Of a stretch of 64,000 nucleotides of DNA, positions 7,186 to 53,141 are shown piece after piece; position 1 is the first letter of the stretch, and each line of letters opens with the position of its first letter. The stretch is from IMG/VR virus record IMGVR_UViG_3300030330_001640, positions 3,123 through 67,122 of that record; one strand, written 5' to 3'. Source of the DNA: a virus (Duplodnaviria; Caudoviricetes). Below the pieces are notes generated by a model. It was given only the letters and a program-made list of their open reading frames with translations, did not search any database and was not told the origin of the DNA. The translations under genes were made by a program, and so were the position numbers.

Positions 7186-8751
7186 ATGGAATATAATTTA
7201 CCAAGTGAGTTGGTAAAAAACTTAGACTTCGGTGGTGAGGCTAAAGATAGAATTATCACCGGAGTTAATAAGTTAGCCCAAGCCGTTAAATCAACATTAG
7301 GTGCATCAGGAAAATGCGTTATATATGAAGATGGTAGAGGCAAGCCGGTCATTACAAAAGATGGGGTAACCGTTGCAGAGAGCGTAGTCTTATATGACCC
7401 GGTTGAAAATATGGGTGCAACTCTAATTAAAGAAGCTGCCAGAAATACAGTTAAGGATGCTGGTGATGGTACAACAACTGCTACAGTATTAGCTGAAGCA
7501 ATAATCAAACAAGTAGACGCTGCGGTCGCAGAAGGTCTTACAATCAGAGAAATTAAAGATGGAGTAACAGAAACGCTAGATAGTGTCATAAGCTATTTAA
7601 ATAATATAGCTATTGATGTAGAAGGCGACATGCTTAAATCTGTTAGCGCTATATCTTGTAACAACGATCAAGAGCTAGGAGCTATAATAGCCGAAGCTTA
7701 TGATAAGGTTGGTAAAAATGGTGTAGTACTAATGGAAGAAAGCGAATCAGAGGATACATACGTTGATATTGTTGATGGTGTAAAAGTTGATTGTGGATTA
7801 ACGTCACCGCATTTTGTAACTAATACAGAGAAACAAACATGCGAGTTAGACAAGCCATTAGTTTTTATATGCTCATCTGAAATACCTAACGTACGTAAGA
7901 TACAAACGATACTAGAGTATGTTATTAAAAATAACAGAGCTTTATTAATTGTAGCACCAGTAGCACAACAAGTTAAAGCTGCTTTACTTATGAATAAAGT
8001 AAAAGGTACTATTAAAGTTAATATTATTGATTTACCAGGCTTTGGTCCTACTAAAAAAGATGCTACAGAAGATTTAGCTATACTTACAGGCGCAACAGTG
8101 CTTAATGAAGAGTTAGGTGATGATTTAGATCTTATGAAGCCAGAACATTTAGGCGAAGCTGAGTTTTCTGTAACTGATGATAAAAATACTGTACTAACAC
8201 TAGAAGGTATGACTCAAGGCATTGAAGATAGAATAGATGAGTTAAATAAACACTTAGCTGAAGAACAAAACGGTTTTATTAAAAAGAAACTTGAAGACAG
8301 GTTAGCTATGTTATCAGGTAGTGTAGGTATAATAAGAGTAGGTGCTAATTCTAAGGTTGAATTAAAGGAAAAGAAAGACAGGGTTGAAGATGCTATATAT
8401 GCTACTAAAGCTGCGTTACAAGAAGGTATAGTACCAGGTGGTGGTATTGCATTATTAAATGCTAGTCAAAAAATTTCGACCGGACAAGCCGGTAAAGTAC
8501 TACTTAATGCTTTATCTTCTCCATATAAAACTATTGTTGATAATGCTGGTATGGAAGTTAGCACTGGTATGAAAGAAGGTTATGGTTGTAATGTTATAAC
8601 TGGTAAGTATACTAAAATGATTGATGAAGGTATTATTGATCCTGTACTTGTAACTAAGTCTGCACTTAAAAATGCTGTAAGTGTAGCATTAACTATTATG
8701 TCAGCAGATTGTGTAATCTCAAATATCAGAATAGAAAATGCAAGCAGTTAA
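7186..8751 (+). CDS. groEL: phage chaperonin GroEL (Cpn60)
   Basis: ITKDGVTVA, AGDGTTTAT, RVEDA, VPGGG and GIIDP motifs; no GGM tail. Confidence 0.97.
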   Translation: MEYNLPSELVKNLDFGGEAKDRIITGVNKLAQAVKSTLGASGKCVIYEDGRGKPVITKDGVTVAESVVLYDPVENMGATLIKEAARNTVKDAGDGTTTATVLAEAIIKQVDAAVAEGLTIREIKDGVTETLDSVISYLNNIAIDVEGDMLKSVSAISCNNDQELGAIIAEAYDKVGKNGVVLMEESESEDTYVDIVDGVKVDCGLTSPHFVTNTEKQTCELDKPLVFICSSEIPNVRKIQTILEYVIKNNRALLIVAPVAQQVKAALLMNKVKGTIKVNIIDLPGFGPTKKDATEDLAILTGATVLNEELGDDLDLMKPEHLGEAEFSVTDDKNTVLTLEGMTQGIEDRIDELNKHLAEEQNGFIKKKLEDRLAMLSGSVGIIRVGANSKVELKEKKDRVEDAIYATKAALQEGIVPGGGIALLNASQKISTGQAGKVLLNALSSPYKTIVDNAGMEVSTGMKEGYGCNVITGKYTKMIDEGIIDPVLVTKSALKNAVSVALTIMSADCVISNIRIENASS

Positions 8752-47402: not shown

Positions 47403-47695
47403 TGGCAATATTTTATAAAAACATATCATCAATAGCAACTACTACTTTAATAACTAAAGGTAGTAGCAATAGTGGTGGTATACGTAAAATAACTATAGCT
47501 AATCATGATAACTCAGATCTTGTTATAGTAAAATTATATTTAGATGATGGTAGTACTACTTATACAATAACAGAAACTACAATACCACCTTTAGTAACAC
47601 TTGTGTTAGAAGATAATTTAGGGTTTGACTCAAGTATATATAATTTAAAATTAGATACGAGTACTACAGCCGAAATAACCGTAATAGTAAAATAA
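47402..47695 (+). CDS. small structural protein
   Basis: beta-rich, ITIAN and IP..TLVLED motifs. Confidence 0.55.
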   Translation: MAIFYKNISSIATTTLITKGSSNSGGIRKITIANHDNSDLVIVKLYLDDGSTTYTITETTIPPLVTLVLEDNLGFDSSIYNLKLDTSTTAEITVIVK

Positions 47696-48186
47696 TGAGA
47701 TTAGAAGTAATTAGATTTTCAAGTGGCGCTGATAGTACTAATGGTATACTATTGGAGGCTATAGAACAAGGTAATGATATAGATGGAATTTTTTTCCAAA
47801 AAAAGTTTTTAGCATATACATTAGAAGATGAACAAAGAGATACAAAAGTTTATGGCGAAACAAGAATACCAGACGGTACTTACAAACTGGGTCTCAGAAA
47901 AGTGGGTGGGTATCACGCAAGGTACACGAAAAGATTTCCGCACATACATGTGGGTATGCTTCATGTTCTTGATGTTCCTGGCTTTGAGTATATACTTATC
48001 CATTGTGGAAACACCGATGAGCATACCGCCGGTTGTTTGTTGGTAGGTGATTCACAAGAAAATAATCAAATAGTAAAAAATGGATTTATAGGTAAATCTA
48101 CTCAAGCTTATAAAAGAATATATCCACGTATAGCAGAAGCTATAGAATGTGGAGAAAATGTAACAATAACATATAAAACTATATAA
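47695..48186 (+). CDS. DUF5675-like protein, candidate cell-wall peptidase (endolysin)
   Basis: TLED..GETRIP.GTY, ILIHCGN...TAGCLLVG with His/Cys arrangement like L,D-transpeptidase folds. Confidence 0.65.
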   Translation: MRLEVIRFSSGADSTNGILLEAIEQGNDIDGIFFQKKFLAYTLEDEQRDTKVYGETRIPDGTYKLGLRKVGGYHARYTKRFPHIHVGMLHVLDVPGFEYILIHCGNTDEHTAGCLLVGDSQENNQIVKNGFIGKSTQAYKRIYPRIAEAIECGENVTITYKTI

Positions 48187-49241
48187 TGAAAAAATTATTA
48201 TTAATATTAGTTATATTACTAATATCGTGTGCTACACCAAAGAAATGTTGTGCACAAGAGTTTTTTAAATACTCTACTTTTTATACATCAATAACAACTA
48301 ATACACCATTTACAGAAAGAGAAGATTATATAGCGGTTGATAAAGGTTATGAGGATGTAACGTGGGTCTCTCCTTACGACTACAATTTAACGTTAGGCCT
48401 GCGCAAAATAGCAAGATTCGATTATGAAACAAAACGTCAAACATGGTATACAGGTACTGAAAGAAATACTGCAGACAACGTTACTATTGGTAACGCTCCT
48501 GGTTGGGAGTACCTTTTTAATTATTCTTTTATACGGAATCGCGGTGACAAGTTTACTGAGCAAAATTTCTGGCTTAGATACCTTGGAAATAAATTCGTTG
48601 CGAAAGCGCAATACACAGATAATCAAAGAGTAAATTTAAAATACTCTTCTTTAGATTTTAGATTAAGATTAAATAAAGGTAATTGGGATTTAACTATTGG
48701 TTCTGTATTTAGAATACATCCAGTATATGGTATAAATCCGATAGAAGACTTCTGGACACCAGGTGAAAATACGTTTCAAGAATTAGCAGAAGACTTTGGT
48801 TATGCATCAGAGCAATGGGTACAGGGTTTTTATGTAGATCAAAACTGGTATGATGTTAGTAGCGGTGATTCTATATTAATAGCTACATCAAATGATGAGT
48901 TTTATAACTGGTGGTTTGGCGATGCTGTAGCAAGATTTAATGAACAAGAATTAGAGAAGTTAGGTTTACAAAAAGAGCTTAGTGCTGTAGTAGGTTTAGC
49001 TTATTATAAATATACACCAACAACGTGGATACACGGTTGGTTTAATTGTCTTCCATATCACTATGGATTAGATGACTACTCATATGATTATGAAGATAGC
49101 ACTATAGAGTGGGATGCTGGTTTAATATTTGGAACTAAAGTAACAAGAAGCCTTGGTCTTTTCGTGGAAGGAACCCACATGAGATACTGGGGTAAAGAAA
49201 TTTTTGAGGTAAAGTTTGGGTTTAACTATTTAATATTTTAA
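48186..49241 (+). CDS. secreted outer-membrane beta-barrel-like protein
   Basis: signal peptide; alternating aromatic/hydrophobic strands; ends EVKFGFNYLIF. Confidence 0.65.
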   Translation: MKKLLLILVILLISCATPKKCCAQEFFKYSTFYTSITTNTPFTEREDYIAVDKGYEDVTWVSPYDYNLTLGLRKIARFDYETKRQTWYTGTERNTADNVTIGNAPGWEYLFNYSFIRNRGDKFTEQNFWLRYLGNKFVAKAQYTDNQRVNLKYSSLDFRLRLNKGNWDLTIGSVFRIHPVYGINPIEDFWTPGENTFQELAEDFGYASEQWVQGFYVDQNWYDVSSGDSILIATSNDEFYNWWFGDAVARFNEQELEKLGLQKELSAVVGLAYYKYTPTTWIHGWFNCLPYHYGLDDYSYDYEDSTIEWDAGLIFGTKVTRSLGLFVEGTHMRYWGKEIFEVKFGFNYLIF

Positions 49242-49243
49242 TT

Positions 49244-50002
49244 ATGAAGAAATACATTATAATTTTATTTGCGTTTATTAGCTCGTTTGCTAATGCGCAG
49301 CTTGACTTTCAAACACTGTGCTTAGAGTGTGCTGCACAAAACGGTTTTTATTGTGGAGATGATCCAGCTAACTGGACACAATACTCACCTAATGGTTGCG
49401 TGCCTAACGGGCAAGGTGGTTTGTTTTATCTTAACGATGGTTGGGAAGATTGCGTTGATGGTAGTGACGAAAACAATGCTGTTGCAACCACATTACTAGA
49501 CTGTGCTCCTCCACCACCTCCACCGTGTGATACGGTTTACGTAGACGTACCAGTTTATATCTATGAAACTTTATTCCAAACAGATACTATATACCAAACA
49601 GAATATATCACTCAAATACTTTTTGATACTATAGTAGAAATTGAATATGAAACTATATTTGAAGAGATATTTGTTACAGATACTTTATATATGGAAGGAG
49701 CTTTAGATACTTTATTCGTAGATGTTATTGAGTATGTAGACGTATTTGTGTTTGATACAATAGTACAAATAGAAACTGAATACATAGAATTTTTTACTAC
49801 GGATACTATAATAGAATATGTAGAAATAATAAATACAGAATATTTAGACTGTGAAACTGGATTACCTTGCACTTCAAATATTCCTGATTTACTAATAAAA
49901 TCTATTAATAGTAATGTAATATATAATATTAATGGACAAGCTATAAAAGAACCCGAAGGATTATATATTCAAGATGGTAAAGTTAAATTTTTAATACGAT
50001 AA
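49244..50002 (+). CDS. secreted protein: LDL-receptor-A-like domain, poly-Pro linker, DT-repeat stalk, T9SS-like C-terminal domain
   Basis: MKKYIIILFAFISSFANA|Q; DGWEDCVDGSDE; PPPPPP; repeated DT(V/I/L)x; IYNINGQ...GLYIQDGKVK. Confidence 0.65.
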   Translation: MKKYIIILFAFISSFANAQLDFQTLCLECAAQNGFYCGDDPANWTQYSPNGCVPNGQGGLFYLNDGWEDCVDGSDENNAVATTLLDCAPPPPPPCDTVYVDVPVYIYETLFQTDTIYQTEYITQILFDTIVEIEYETIFEEIFVTDTLYMEGALDTLFVDVIEYVDVFVFDTIVQIETEYIEFFTTDTIIEYVEIINTEYLDCETGLPCTSNIPDLLIKSINSNVIYNINGQAIKEPEGLYIQDGKVKFLIR

Positions 50003-50005
50003 ACA

Positions 50006-50287
50006 ATGGCGTTTAAAAGAAAACCTTTCTCTGGTTTTGGTAATAAAATAAAAACCGCAAGAGCGAAAAGATTAACAAGGAAATTTGTTGGATCAACTAC
50101 TGTTGATGGTCCTGATACCTATAATATTTCTGAAAAAAAATATCTTAAAGCAGAAAAAAAAATGATGAAAGCTGATAAGCTTTTAAAAAAAGCTGGGTAT
50201 GGGCTTGAGTATAGAGAAGGAGCTTTAGGCGCTGAGGGTTATCAAACAGCTATGGATTGGGCTAGTAAAAATAAAAAAAGAAAATAA
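50006..50287 (+). CDS. basic MAFK-leader protein
   Basis: MAFKRKPFSGFG start. Confidence 0.7.
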   Translation: MAFKRKPFSGFGNKIKTARAKRLTRKFVGSTTVDGPDTYNISEKKYLKAEKKMMKADKLLKKAGYGLEYREGALGAEGYQTAMDWASKNKKRK

Positions 50288-50631
50288 TGGCTAAAGAATT
50301 ATCAGAAGAAAGTAAATTTCAAATTAGCGTTAAGACATTAATAACTATTGTTGTTGGTGTTGCTACTATTATATCAGCTTACTTTGGTTTAATGGCTAGT
50401 ATAAATTCTAAGTTTGCAGAACTAGAAGATAAAGTAGAAAAAGCCTTAGAGCTACCCAAACCAGGGACAGGTACTTATACTATAGATATGGGTGATCCAG
50501 CTGCTAGTAATACATGGCCGCCAACACGTATGGAGTTTAACATGAAAGATCAAATGGCCCGTAACCAAATTGATGCATTAGTAAAGGAGATAGATGAGAT
50601 GAAAGAAGAGATAAAACTATTAAGAAAATGA
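50287..50631 (+). CDS. single-TM coiled-coil membrane protein (spanin-like topology)
   Basis: TM LITIVVGVATIISAYFGL followed by coiled coil. Confidence 0.55.
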   Translation: MAKELSEESKFQISVKTLITIVVGVATIISAYFGLMASINSKFAELEDKVEKALELPKPGTGTYTIDMGDPAASNTWPPTRMEFNMKDQMARNQIDALVKEIDEMKEEIKLLRK

Positions 50632-51029
50632 TTAGAAGAATAGATATATCTAACTATTTGTATTTACTAATAATGTTGTTCATGTTTTTATGTGGTACAG
50701 CATTTGGTCAAGACTTTGTTACAGCTGATAATTTTAAAAACAAAATAGCTAAAGACGTTGTTGTCGTTGAATTTTGGGCTGACTGGAATAAGATGAATCA
50801 GTTTAATGAATTAAATAAATTAAAAGGATGTAATGTATATCGAATCGATATCATGTCATATATGGACATCCAGATGAATTATAATGTCACGGCTATACCT
50901 ACTGTTATTATATTTGATAATGGTATAGAAAAAGAAAGGTTTAATGCTAATGTAATGTTCAAGCTTGACGCCGACAGAAAAACAGTGCAGCACTCAGTTG
51001 ATACTATAACACTTAACAAATTTCAATAA
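50628..51029 (+). CDS. secreted thioredoxin-fold protein lacking CxxC
   Basis: signal peptide ending AFG|Q; VVVEFWADWN, YNVTAIPTVIIFDNG (cis-Pro motif). Confidence 0.75.
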   Translation: MIRRIDISNYLYLLIMLFMFLCGTAFGQDFVTADNFKNKIAKDVVVVEFWADWNKMNQFNELNKLKGCNVYRIDIMSYMDIQMNYNVTAIPTVIIFDNGIEKERFNANVMFKLDADRKTVQHSVDTITLNKFQ

Positions 51030-53113: not shown

Positions 53114-53141
53114 AAAAAAAGGGAGCAATTAAGCTCCCTTT
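53111..53141. terminator. bidirectional intrinsic terminator between the convergent arms
   Basis: AAAGGGAGC/GCTCCCTTT stem with A run before and T-rich tract after. Confidence 0.85.

What the first reader, a model, noticed from the sequence alone, without database searches (positions are those of the whole stretch)
49244..50002. Apparent T9SS cargo encoded by a phage, displaying an LDL-receptor-A-like domain on a DT-repeat stalk
Seen: signal peptide followed by Gln; Cys-rich domain with the DxxxDCxDGSDE calcium-cage signature; six Pro; about seven DT(V/I/L)x repeats; C-terminal IYNINGQ..GLYIQDGKVK resembling T9SS sorting domains. Inference: the phage uses the host T9SS to display a eukaryote-like ligand-binding module, for example to attach infected cells to algal or particle surfaces.
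Basis: partly seen in the sequence, partly recalled or inferred. Interest (0 to 1): 0.7.

Follow-up and report, generated by a model that had tools for sequence, protein, structure and literature searches.

The report
Phage surface protein with miniature secretion tail
A very common uncultured marine phage of Flavobacteria-type bacteria encodes a small exported protein assembled from its host family's own surface-protein parts (a calcium-cage head, an acidic stalk full of sugar-attachment sites, and a 41-43-residue tail matching the recently described 'short' type IX secretion signal), so the phage probably plants it on the infected cell's surface, for a purpose still unknown.

Summary

- **Head:** it is a genuine LDL-receptor-A-like calcium module by fold and profile, though below Pfam's cut-off. 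It is a bacterial variant, 70% identical to one in the candidate host family, not a eukaryote-like import.
- **Stalk:** the DT(V/I/L) repeats match the Bacteroidota O-glycosylation sequon. The stalk varies from 38 to 170 aa and has no Lys or Arg in 188 homologues.
- **Tail:** it fails every standard T9SS model (TIGR04183, PF18962, CHU_C, DUF6383). It does fit, feature by feature, the 'short' type A CTDs shown to be cleaved and glycosylated in Prevotella intermedia (PMC11969387). It aligns with host long CTDs once strands 1, 2, 4 and 5 are removed (hhalign 82%, E 1e-5; controls 0.2% or less).
- **Relatives:** related phages carry the same stalk and Cys loop in front of a bona fide type B CTD.
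- **Context:** the gene follows a phage-specific outer-membrane barrel gene in 79 of 80 related contigs.

Verdict: probable T9SS cargo with a short signal, confidence about 0.55. The surface role and the algal-attachment idea are untested. This scan met the same family twice before on other DNA and reached the same reading.

The parts
49244..50002 (+). Whole gene: 252-aa exported protein (P0001)
   Evidence: ORF and translation. 1430 homologues. Found in 80 of 80 fetched related viral loci.
49244..49297 (+). Sec signal peptide (residues 1-18), predicted cleavage ANA|Q
   Evidence: Read from the sequence. Q19 is kept in 188 of 190 homologues. No signal-peptide predictor was available.
49319..49507 (+). 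LA (LDL-receptor class A)-like calcium-cage head, residues 26-88. It has a ~14-residue insert between Cys2 and Cys3, and the Cys4/Cys6 pair is replaced by an outer pair (C26, C87).
   Evidence: AF2 with MSA gives pLDDT about 90. The only small-domain fold matches are LA modules: 3a7q_B, 9rbq_A, 7fff_H and 5oyl_D. A profile against the PDB hits only LA repeats, E 0.0025-0.007. Pfam LDLa is sub-threshold. Cage residues are invariant.
49508..49525 (+). Hexa-proline linker (residues 89-94)
   Evidence: Read from the sequence. Pro predominates at residues 90-93 in 146-174 of 190 homologues.
49526..49843 (+). Acidic DT-repeat stalk (residues 95-200): seven D-T-(V/I/L) sequons, net charge -25, no Lys or Arg
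   Evidence: Composition. Stalk length is 38-170 aa and explains protein length (r 0.98), with zero K/R in 188 homologues. pLDDT about 25. The sequon definition is from PMC8550257.
49847..49870 (+). Cys loop D-C-x-T-G-L-P-C (residues 202-209) at the stalk/tail junction
   Evidence: Invariant in 189 of 190 homologues. The same loop precedes a bona fide type B CTD in related phage proteins.
49871..49999 (+). Short C-terminal tail (residues 210-252): helix plus three-stranded sheet, with motifs B (IYNxxGQxI), D (GxYI) and E (GKxK..)
   Evidence: pLDDT 74-82, H213-221 and E226-228, 240-243, 246-249. Conservation. Always at the extreme C-terminus of diverse proteins. Spliced hhalign gives 82%.
48186..49241 (+). 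Upstream partner gene: 351-aa exported protein with outer-membrane beta-barrel features (signal peptide then Q; C-terminal ..FGFNYLIF)
   Evidence: Precedes the target in 79 of 80 loci, with a gap of 1-3 nt in most. The ESM Atlas points to OMP barrels, a lead only. No Pfam or PDB hit.
50287..50631 (+). Conserved downstream gene: 114-aa single-pass membrane protein with a coiled coil
   Evidence: Present in 67 of 80 loci in the same order. phrog_20984, unknown function.
50628..51029 (+). Conserved downstream gene: exported thioredoxin-fold protein with NxxN in place of CxxC
   Evidence: Pfam Thioredoxin 1.7e-08. Present in 74 of 80 loci. The FWAxWNxxN motif is read in 48 of 73 orthologues.
47695..48186 (+). 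DUF5675 protein, candidate C82-like cell-wall lysin, which stays near the cassette
   Evidence: Pfam DUF5675 2.2e-25. It lies upstream or downstream of the cassette in related loci. The lysin reading comes from bioRxiv 10.64898/2026.04.11.717860.

Best explanation
The gene encodes a phage-made mimic of the host's own surface proteins, reduced to three parts: an N-terminal cap, a stalk and a sorting tail.

Proposed pathway:
1. Sec exports the protein (inferred from the signal peptide).
2. In the periplasm the LA-like head folds around one Ca2+ ion and forms disulfides. The seven D-T-(V/I/L) sequons of the stalk are O-glycosylated by the phylum-wide Bacteroidota system (inferred).
3. The last 41-43 residues act as a 'short' type A T9SS signal. 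This is a three-stranded sheet whose motifs B, D and E correspond to strands 3, 6 and 7 of a standard CTD, and it would bind the host shuttle PorV.
4. The protein crosses the outer membrane through the host T9SS.
5. The PorU sortase probably cuts just after the Cys loop, around P-C-T-S|N-I, and links the new C-terminus to a surface glycan. The calcium-cage head would then stand on a glycosylated acidic stalk on the infected cell.

Shown here: the anatomy, its conservation, the shared modules with one Flavobacteriales family, and the presence of T9SS parts in that family.

Inferred: export, glycosylation, T9SS dependence, cleavage and surface location.

Unresolved: the biological purpose. Candidates are superinfection exclusion, surface remodelling or adhesion. 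The role of the invariably co-encoded phage outer-membrane barrel is also open.
For: 1. The tail behaves as a portable C-terminal signal. In the 50%-identity representatives it lies within about 2 residues of the C-terminus of proteins of 248-502 aa. Their passengers include LRR, trypsin, laminin-G, DUF285, SprB-repeat and thyroglobulin domains, and most have Bacteroidota-type signal peptides.

2. The tail meets each sequence feature that Ye et al. give for experimentally cleaved and glycosylated short CTDs (PMC11969387):
- 40-55 aa long;
- motif B Tyr and Gly (Y227 in 186 of 190, G231 in 188 of 190);
- 1-6 aa between motifs B and D (here 4);
- motif D GxY followed by Ile (Y241 in 190 of 190, I242 in 189 of 190);
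- a basic motif E;
- a predicted helix plus one three-stranded sheet.

3. Profile-profile test. Tails against 17 canonical CTDs, most from candidate-host genomes, cut down to strands 3, 6 and 7, give probability 82%, E 1e-5, score 29.1. The removed parts give 0.1%, reversed tails 0.2%, and 30 column permutations a maximum score of 14.7.

4. The same stalk and D-C-x-T-G-L-P-C loop are followed by a bona fide type B CTD in P0248 and in contigs L171, L172 and L174 (CHU_C 36-64 bits against a cut-off of 27). L171 shares TerL (47%), portal (35%) and DUF5675 (61%) with this phage.

5. Strong tail matches occur only in 4 of 16 species genomes of one Flavobacteriales family, and in none of about 385 other genomes sampled from the order.
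- Two of these genomes hold 25 and 41 matches to the type A CTD model.
- All four hold 9-15 matches to the type B CTD model, and 3-5 PorP/SprF genes each.
- PorV scores above its cut-off in three of the four.

6. The head is 70% identical to one placed directly after the signal peptide of a protein in a genome (G043) of that family.

7. Phage-encoded T9SS cargo has precedent (PMC7468147, PMC6949934).
Against: - No curated model recognises the tail. TIGR04183, PF18962, PF13585 and PF19910 give nothing at E <= 10.
- Unspliced hhalign against canonical type A CTDs gives only 5.6-9.6%, and 1.2% against type B CTDs. The type A versus type B positive control gives 70%.
- An HMM built from canonical CTDs scores the tails at most 9.6 bits, hardly above shuffles.
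- The spliced alignment covers only 19 columns, and its design followed the hypothesis under test.
- Short CTDs have been shown to work only in Prevotella intermedia.
- In Flavobacterium johnsoniae all five type B motifs are needed for secretion (PMC12618676), and two of them are absent here.
- Each candidate host genome carries only one such tail against dozens of standard CTDs.
- The constant phage barrel partner suggests the tail or head may need something the host T9SS does not supply.
- The gene sits in a cassette with a candidate lysin, which leaves a periplasmic lysis role open.
Confidence: 0.55

Rival explanations
1. Barrel-dependent display. The phage's own 351-aa outer-membrane barrel is the cognate carrier or anchor of this protein, analogous to the PorP/SprF shuttles encoded next to type B cargo or to a split autotransporter. 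The host T9SS would be either not used or used only together with the phage barrel.
For: - The barrel gene directly precedes the target in 79 of 80 related loci, mostly with a 1-3 nt gap.
- The barrel has a signal peptide followed by Gln, and a C-terminal ..FGFNYLIF beta-signal.
- ESM Atlas leads point to OMP barrels.
- Its size (336-365 aa) is like that of PorP/SprF proteins (310-355 aa).
- In the candidate host family PorP/SprF genes lie immediately beside type B cargo genes.
- Related phage contigs whose stalk protein carries a full type B CTD show no barrel homologue.
Against: - There is no detectable similarity of the barrel to host PorP/SprF (2%), PorV (0.1%) or PorV-like paralogues (0.3%). 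The PorV versus paralogue control gives 97.8%.
- There is no Pfam or PDB hit.
- Bacterial proteins with the same tail have no adjacent barrel, and no barrel homologue was found in the 16 family genomes.
Confidence: 0.2
2. Periplasmic lysis or envelope-disruption factor. The protein stays in the periplasm or at the inner face of the outer membrane. It would work with the barrel, the membrane-anchored coiled-coil protein and the DUF5675 lysin as a Bacteroidota-phage equivalent of a spanin or outer-membrane disruptor, for instance by binding divalent cations through its very acidic stalk and Ca cage.
For: - The cassette always travels with DUF5675, a candidate C82-like lysin.
- The 114-aa neighbour has i-spanin-like topology.
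- No terminator-like site turns up between about 46.0 and 53.1 kb apart from two weak stem-loops inside the barrel gene, so the gene probably lies in the long late rightward operon.
- The protein has extreme net charge (-36 in all) and no basic residues in the stalk.
Against: - The identical stalk and tail sit on large LRR, protease and adhesin-type bacterial proteins, which are typical extracellular cargo.
- The same stalk precedes a certified T9SS type B signal in related phages.
- It is not a lipoprotein, as o-spanins are.
- No known spanin or disruptin family was matched.
Confidence: 0.15
3. The tail is simply a small folding, oligomerisation or binding domain (for example for a surface glycan). 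Its likeness to CTD motifs would be convergent, and the protein would be released or retained by other means.
For: - All curated CTD models fail.
- There is only one tail-bearing gene per bacterial genome.
- The unspliced profile comparison is insignificant.
Against: - It fits all the short-CTD features point by point, and the spliced alignment stands far above its controls.
- The tail occupies exactly the position that type A or type B CTDs occupy on the same passengers and on the same stalk.
Confidence: 0.1

Closest known systems
'Short' T9SS type A C-terminal domains of Prevotella intermedia (Ye et al. 2025, Open Biol, PMC11969387)
   Same: - Extreme C-terminal position behind a Sec signal peptide, and 40-55 aa long.
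- Motif B (Tyr..Gly), a 1-6 aa gap, motif D (GxY-Ile) and a basic motif E.
- A predicted single three-stranded sheet, sometimes with a helix before it.
- Passengers of the same kinds (LRR, DUF285, proteases).
- A candidate cleavage site with a small residue then Ile/Met, in a linker after a Pro.
   Different: - It is found in marine Flavobacteriales and their phages, not Bacteroidales.
- It is preceded by an invariant disulfide-type loop and an acidic DT stalk.
- The distance from the putative cleavage motif to motif B is about 13 aa, against 6-11.
- Secretion, cleavage and glycan attachment are untested here.
- The authors' HMMs could not be run.
Phage-encoded T9SS type A cargo genes ('Cryophage', Bellas et al. 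2020, PMC7468147; crAss-BACON ORFs, de Jonge et al. 2019, PMC6949934)
   Same: A phage of a Bacteroidota host encodes a protein with host-type export signals, presumed to hijack the host T9SS.
   Different: - Those carry standard type A CTDs recognised by HMMs, with enzyme or BACON passengers.
- This one has a miniature tail that the HMMs miss and a non-enzymatic Ca-cage head.
- It also has a fixed partnership with a phage barrel gene.
Type B CTD cargo with adjacent PorP/SprF shuttle genes (Gorasia et al. 2022, PMC9143113; Paillat et al. 2025, PMC12618676)
   Same: - A cargo gene sits next to a gene for an outer-membrane barrel of about 330-350 aa.
- Related phages put a true type B CTD on the same stalk.
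   Different: - The tail lacks type B motifs A and C and fails CHU_C.
- The barrel shows no similarity to PorP/SprF.
- The gene order is barrel then cargo, the reverse of the host arrangement.
LDL-receptor class A (LA) modules (Pfam PF00057; e.g. ApoER2 LA, VLDLR, LDLRAD3 structures)
   Same: - Ca-cage residues in register (backbone of Y62 and W67, with D65, D69, D75 and E76).
- Cys1-Cys3 and Cys2-Cys5 positions are kept.
- Fold matches cover 35-40 of 35-42 residues at rmsd 2.5-2.8 A and 31-37% identity.
   Different: - There is a 14-residue insert between Cys2 and Cys3.
- Cys4 is Asn and Cys6 is displaced, apparently replaced by an outer C26/C87 pair.
- It scores below the Pfam cut-off.
- It belongs to a bacterial subfamily used as an N-terminal cap or internal module of marine surface proteins.
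Bacteroidota general O-glycosylation sequon D(S/T)(A/I/L/V/M/T) (e.g. PMC8550257, PMC12871550)
   Same: All seven DT dipeptides of the stalk are followed by V, I or L. Homologues carry 2-11 such sites, rising with stalk length.
   Different: A dense array of sequons in a lysine-free acidic/hydrophobic repeat has not, to my knowledge, been described as a stalk. Glycosylation is not shown here.

Membership tests
T9SS type A CTD, standard long form (TIGR04183 / PF18962) | HMM score at or above the curated cut-off (23 / 27 bits) | tested here: not met
   No hit at E <= 10 in the protein or in the six-frame phage record. An HMM built from 17 canonical CTDs, most from candidate-host genomes, gives at most 9.6 bits.
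T9SS type A CTD, standard long form (TIGR04183 / PF18962) | Seven-stranded beta-sandwich of about 70-80 aa | tested here: not met
   AF2 with MSA predicts one helix and three short strands in 43 aa after the Cys loop.
'Short' T9SS type A CTD (Ye et al. 2025) | Extreme C-terminal position on proteins with an N-terminal signal peptide | tested here: met
   Of 53 loop motifs in representatives, 41 lie exactly 50-51 aa from the end. The outliers are fragments or the type B variant. Signal peptides were seen.
'Short' T9SS type A CTD (Ye et al. 2025) | Length 40-55 aa; motif B Y..G; 1-6 aa to motif D; motif D GxY followed by Ile; basic motif E | tested here: met
   Residues 210-252. Y227 186/190, G231 188/190, a 4-aa gap, G239 177/190, Y241 190/190, I242 189/190, K246/K248 and a terminal K/R. 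The definitions are from the paper.
'Short' T9SS type A CTD (Ye et al. 2025) | Single three-stranded sheet equivalent to strands 3, 6 and 7 of long CTDs | tested here: met
   AF2 strands at 226-228, 240-243 and 246-249, pLDDT 74-82. hhalign against long CTDs cut down to strands 3, 6 and 7 gives 82%, E 1e-5, against controls of 0.2% or less. Only 19 columns align.
'Short' T9SS type A CTD (Ye et al. 2025) | T9SS-dependent secretion, PorU cleavage and C-terminal glycan attachment | not testable with these tools
   Needs secretion assays and mass spectrometry. The authors' short-CTD HMM was not available.
T9SS type B CTD (CHU_C PF13585 / TIGR04131) | HMM hit and the five motifs A-E, all required in F. 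johnsoniae (PMC12618676) | tested here: not met
   No CHU_C hit at E <= 10. hhalign against 23 host type B CTDs plus the P0248 CTD gives 1.2%. The FTPNGDGxND-type and WDG-type motifs are absent from the sequence. Related phage proteins do meet it.
DUF6383 (PF19910, Bacteroidales T9SS-like tail) | HMM hit | tested here: not met
   No hit at E <= 10. The only link is a weak ESM Atlas lead at 0.81.
LDL-receptor class A domain (PF00057) | Pfam gathering score | tested here: not met
   14.4 bits against 24.1, E 0.044, covering only the C-terminal half of the model.
LDL-receptor class A domain (PF00057) | Calcium-cage residues in register | tested here: met
   Alignment to VLDLR LA repeats. D65, D69, D75 and E76 are invariant in 189-190 of 190 homologues.
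LDL-receptor class A domain (PF00057) | Six Cys in the C1-C3, C2-C5, C4-C6 pattern | tested here: not met
   Cys4 is Asn64 (188/190) and Cys6 is displaced. An extra C26 and C87 co-occur in this subfamily. The disulfide pairing is inferred.
LDL-receptor class A domain (PF00057) | LA fold | tested here: inconclusive
   pLDDT is about 90. All small-domain matches are LA modules covering 35-40 of 35-42 residues, but Z is only 2.1-2.2 and Foldseek E > 1. A profile against the PDB hits only LA repeats, E 0.0025-0.007.
Bacteroidota O-glycosylation targets | Exported protein bearing D(S/T)(A/I/L/V/M/T) sequons | tested here: met
   Seven DT(V/I/L) triplets in the stalk, with 2-11 in homologues. The motif is from PMC8550257. 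Occupancy cannot be tested here.
PorP/SprF or PorV shuttle (for the neighbouring barrel) | Sequence or profile similarity to PF11751 / NF033710 proteins | tested here: not met
   No PF11751 hit at E <= 10. hhalign gives 2% against host PorP/SprF and 0.1-0.3% against PorV and its paralogues. The fold was not modelled.

The most novel reading that the evidence does not exclude
The four conserved genes form a previously undescribed phage system. They are the orphan outer-membrane barrel, this head-stalk-tail protein, the membrane-anchored coiled-coil protein and the redox-dead thioredoxin-fold protein. The system would install a phage-specific structure in the host envelope, with the barrel serving as a phage-encoded carrier or anchor that captures a minimal T9SS-type tail. 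That would make it the first phage-encoded accessory of the type IX secretion pathway, used for instance to exclude superinfecting phages or to re-tool the cell surface.
Probability: 0.2. Interest if true: 0.8.

Novelty: new variant of a known kind. Interest (0 to 1): 0.55.

Why it matters
- **Reach of the short signal.** If the tail works as proposed, the 'short' T9SS signal, so far reported in a single oral Prevotella species, is also used by an abundant family of small-genome marine Flavobacteriales and by their phages. Standard CTD models would then undercount T9SS cargo in ocean metagenomes.
- **How the phage builds such genes.** A very common ocean phage group appears to build surface proteins by splicing host modules (cap, glycosylated stalk, sorting tail). 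This gives a sequence-based host link for uncultured phages: strong tail matches in 4 of 16 species genomes of one family, and in none of about 385 other genomes sampled from the order.
- **A target for experiment.** The conserved envelope cassette can be studied for what phages do to the Bacteroidota outer membrane during infection.

Tried and rejected
- **Standard T9SS type A, type B and DUF6383 tails.** No HMM hits.
- **Unspliced profile-profile comparison.** Insignificant.
- **Transitive link through weaker short tails of other Flavobacteriales.** Only one of seven gets a sub-threshold TIGR04183 hit, E 0.01.
- **Barrel as PorP/SprF, PorV or any known family.** No Pfam or PDB hits and hhalign 2% or less. 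No homologue in the 16 candidate-host genomes.
- **Cultured phage relatives.** No homologue of the target or the barrel in 50,697 phage records.
- **Structure prediction.** Single-sequence AF2 was useless, pLDDT 32. The stalk stays unmodelled even with an MSA, pLDDT about 25.
- **DNA tandem repeats in the stalk.** Only weak, short arrays.
- **Promoter and terminator scan.** No signal above shuffles inside the cassette.
- **Virion component.** Rejected because of the signal peptide with conserved Gln, shared with the two exported neighbours.
- **Prophage or moron inside a bacterium.** Rejected because the record is a 67-kb virus with terminase, portal and capsid genes.
Full report
**Observation**

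The ORF at window 49244-50002 (+) is real and gives 252 aa. It lies in a 67-kb IMG/VR virus record that has terminase, portal, capsid-type, primase-helicase and ribonucleotide reductase genes. All 86 named cultured-phage records with a related terminase infect Flavobacteriaceae: Flavobacterium, Cellulophaga, Tenacibaculum and Maribacter.

The protein has 1430 homologues at E <= 0.01 in marine metagenomes. A copy is present in each of 80 fetched related viral contigs.
- Gln directly after the predicted signal-peptide cleavage site (188/190).
- Nine invariant Cys.
- The cage string N-D-G-W-x-D-C-x-D-x-x-D-E.
- A proline linker.
- The C-D-T-V start of the repeat region.
- The loop D-C-x-T-G-L-P-C.
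- The terminal IYNxxGQxI....GxYIxxGKxK.

**The head**

Pfam LDLa is sub-threshold: 14.4 bits against 24.1, covering only the second half of the model. Other evidence supports an LA-type module:
- phmmer and a family profile against the PDB hit nothing but LA repeats, E 0.04 and 0.0025-0.007.
- With a 150-row alignment, AlphaFold models residues 21-90 at pLDDT about 90.
- The only small-domain structural matches among 48,161 chains are LA modules. These are ApoER2 3a7q_B and 9rbq_A and LDLRAD3 7fff_H, with 35-40 of 35-42 residues aligned, rmsd 2.5-2.8 A and 31-37% identity. Z is only 2.1-2.2 because the domain is tiny.
- Foldseek's best rows also include LA modules.

The module is a variant. 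It has a 14-residue insert between Cys2 and Cys3. Cys4 is Asn64. An extra N-terminal Cys (C26) and a displaced C-terminal Cys (C87) co-occur in this subfamily, whereas relatives that keep Cys4 have the canonical six Cys.

It is not a eukaryote-like import. The same module sits inside many large marine bacterial proteins. Six of those examined end like type A CTDs by eye, and a seventh (P0215) hits PF18962 at 46.4 bits. In genome G043 it follows the signal peptide directly, at 70% identity to the phage head.

**The stalk**

Residues 95-200 hold 17 Thr, 16 Ile, 15 Glu, 13 Val, 11 Tyr, 10 Asp and 9 Phe. Net charge is -25 and there is no Lys or Arg.

In 188 homologues the stalk ranges from 38 to 170 aa and accounts for nearly all length variation (r 0.98). 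It carries 2-11 DT(V/I/L) triplets and never a single Lys or Arg. AlphaFold cannot model it (pLDDT about 25).

The literature gives that motif as (D)(S/T)(A/I/L/V/M/T) (PMC8550257). Here all seven DT dipeptides are followed by V, I or L, against 1.6 DT expected by composition. I therefore read the stalk as a variable-length, probably O-glycosylated spacer. Occupancy of the sites is inferred, not shown.

**The tail**

Standard tests fail:
- TIGR04183, PF18962, CHU_C and DUF6383 give nothing at E <= 10 in the protein or in the six-frame phage record.
- hhalign of 198 tails against 17 canonical type A CTDs, most from candidate-host genomes, gives 5.6-9.6%.
- hhalign against 23 host type B CTDs plus the P0248 CTD gives 1.2%, while type A against type B gives 70% as a positive control.
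- A CTD HMM scores tails at most 9.6 bits, barely above shuffles.

Even so, the tail behaves as a sorting module. It sits at the extreme C-terminus of proteins of 248-502 aa that have Bacteroidota-type signal peptides. Their passengers include LRR, trypsin, laminin-G, DUF285, SprB-repeat and thyroglobulin domains.

Two earlier follow-ups of this scan, on other DNA, named Ye et al. 2025 (PMC11969387). I read that paper. It describes 'short' CTDs in Prevotella intermedia:
- 48 of 80 predicted cargo proteins have short CTDs of 40-55 aa.
- Cleavage sites were determined experimentally for five short CTDs, and C-terminal glycosylation was found on six cargo proteins in all.
- They are predicted to form one three-stranded sheet, sometimes with a helix, equivalent to strands 3, 6 and 7 of long CTDs.
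- They have motif B (Tyr, invariant Gly), 1-6 aa to motif D (GxY then Ile), and a basic motif E.

The phage tail meets each of these features:
- 43 aa follow the loop.
- Motif B: Y227 and G231.
- Gap to motif D: four residues.
- Motif D: G239-x-Y241-I242.
- Motif E: K246/K248 and a terminal K/R.
- Predicted structure: helix 213-221 plus strands 226-228, 240-243 and 246-249 at pLDDT 74-82.

I then cut the canonical long-CTD alignment down to strands 3, 6 and 7, as the paper's equivalence prescribes. The tails aligned at 82% probability, E 1e-5 and score 29.1. The removed parts gave 0.1%, reversed tails gave 0.2%, and 30 column permutations gave a maximum score of 14.7. The alignment is short (19 columns) and the design follows the hypothesis, so this is support and not proof.

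**Circumstantial evidence for the T9SS route**

- P0248 and the ORFs on contigs L171, L172 and L174 have the same signal-peptide-Gln start, DT stalk and D-C-x-T-G-L-P-C loop. They then carry a bona fide type B CTD (CHU_C 36-64 bits, cut-off 27).
- L171 is a relative of this phage, with TerL 47%, portal 35% and DUF5675 61% identical. So this stalk is used by related phages in front of a certified T9SS signal.
- Strong tail matches in bacteria occur only in 4 of 16 species genomes of one family of small-genome Flavobacteriales, one copy each. None occurs in about 385 other genomes sampled from the order.
- Two of these genomes hold 25 and 41 matches to the type A CTD model.
- All four hold 9-15 matches to the type B CTD model and 3-5 PorP/SprF genes each, most lying beside type B cargo genes.
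- PorV scores above its cut-off in three of the four.
- In these genomes the same kind of passenger (ACNYD-type repeats) ends in a standard CTD in most proteins and in the stalk plus tail in one.
- Phage-encoded T9SS cargo with standard CTDs has been reported before (PMC7468147, PMC6949934).

**Context**

In related viral contigs the order is barrel gene, target, (variable genes), membrane-anchored coiled-coil protein, then thioredoxin-fold protein. These neighbours are kept in 79, 67 and 74 of 80 loci respectively, and the barrel-target gap is mostly 1-3 nt.

The barrel protein has a signal peptide followed by Gln and ends in ..FGFNYLIF. ESM Atlas leads point to OMP barrels. Otherwise it is an orphan:
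- No Pfam or PDB hit.
- No PorP/SprF hit, and no similarity to PorP/SprF or PorV in profile comparison.
- No homologue in the 16 family genomes.

DUF5675 stays close to the cassette. A 2026 preprint proposes it as a C82-like lysin. The thioredoxin-fold protein has NxxN in place of CxxC in every orthologue where the motif could be read.

The pattern scan finds no terminator-like site between about 46 and 53.1 kb except two weak stem-loops inside the barrel gene.

**Reading**

The best-supported mechanism has four steps: Sec export, Ca-dependent folding of the head with O-glycosylation of the stalk in the periplasm, transport by the host T9SS through a short type A-like tail, and probable sortase-type cleavage after the loop with attachment to a surface glycan. 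The result would be a calcium-cage head held on a glycosylated stalk on the infected cell.

I give this 0.55. The rivals are:
- Barrel-dependent display (0.2).
- A periplasmic lysis or envelope role (0.15).
- A tail that only looks like a CTD (0.1).

The purpose of the displayed head is unknown, and nothing tested here supports attachment to algae or particles.

The finding is a new variant of a known kind, namely phage-encoded T9SS cargo. It adds two points: the short signal class reaches marine Flavobacteriales and their phages, and the gene has a conserved partnership with an orphan phage barrel. The same family was met twice before by this scan on other DNA, with the same conclusion.

Noticed in passing
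window 50628-51029: An exported thioredoxin-fold protein has its CxxC replaced by NxxN. The FWAxWNxxN motif is read in 48 of 73 phage orthologues and the motif pattern was not matched in the other 25. So it is a redox-dead thioredoxin fold, conserved in the same cassette as a protein with nine invariant Cys.
   Followed up: partly
L171:3719-5023; L172:4943-6367; L174:2171-3265; protein P0248: Three contigs encode a second class of DT-stalk proteins. L171 is clearly a related phage; L172 and L174 may be. After the same D-C-x-T-G-L-P-C loop these proteins carry a full type B T9SS CTD (CHU_C 36-64 bits). In L171 the gene sits directly upstream of the terminase and no barrel homologue is nearby.
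   Followed up: partly
L007:283-1794; L113:1495-3177 (- strand); L006; L114: In the candidate host family the stalk plus tail occurs once per genome on very different passengers. One is an LRR protein with a long 14-residue DTLYVDNFIYETLW-type repeat, another an ACNYD-repeat protein. The neighbouring genes are ordinary housekeeping genes. A constant anchor with variable passengers suggests a diversifying surface protein.
   Followed up: partly
L116, L118, L119, L120, L122, L123 (other small Flavobacteriales genomes): Other C-terminal tails of about 45-50 aa have a helix, then (I/L)(Y/F)(D/N)xxG(K/R), then a 4-9 aa gap, then GxYIxNGKK. They lack the DT stalk. Standard models miss six of seven, so short CTD-like tails may be widespread in streamlined marine Flavobacteriales.
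   Followed up: partly
window 47695-48186: The DUF5675 protein has an HCGN...TAGC motif. A 2026 preprint proposes this family as a C82 (L,D-transpeptidase-like) phage lysin. In related phages it sits either just upstream or 1-3 kb downstream of the envelope cassette.
   Followed up: partly
window 49319-49528 (residues 26-95): There is an odd number of invariant cysteines. Seven lie in the head and linker and two in the tail loop. C95 opens the stalk directly after the hexa-proline run and has no obvious partner, so it may form an intermolecular disulfide or a C87-C95 proline loop.
   Followed up: no
window 53118-53141: A perfect 9-bp stem with T-runs on both strands is a bidirectional terminator-like site. 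It lies between the end of the rightward late operon and the leftward replication and nucleotide-metabolism genes.
   Followed up: no
window 7186-8751: A phage-encoded GroEL-type chaperonin (phrog_5725, E 1.7e-134) lies upstream of the packaging genes.
   Followed up: no
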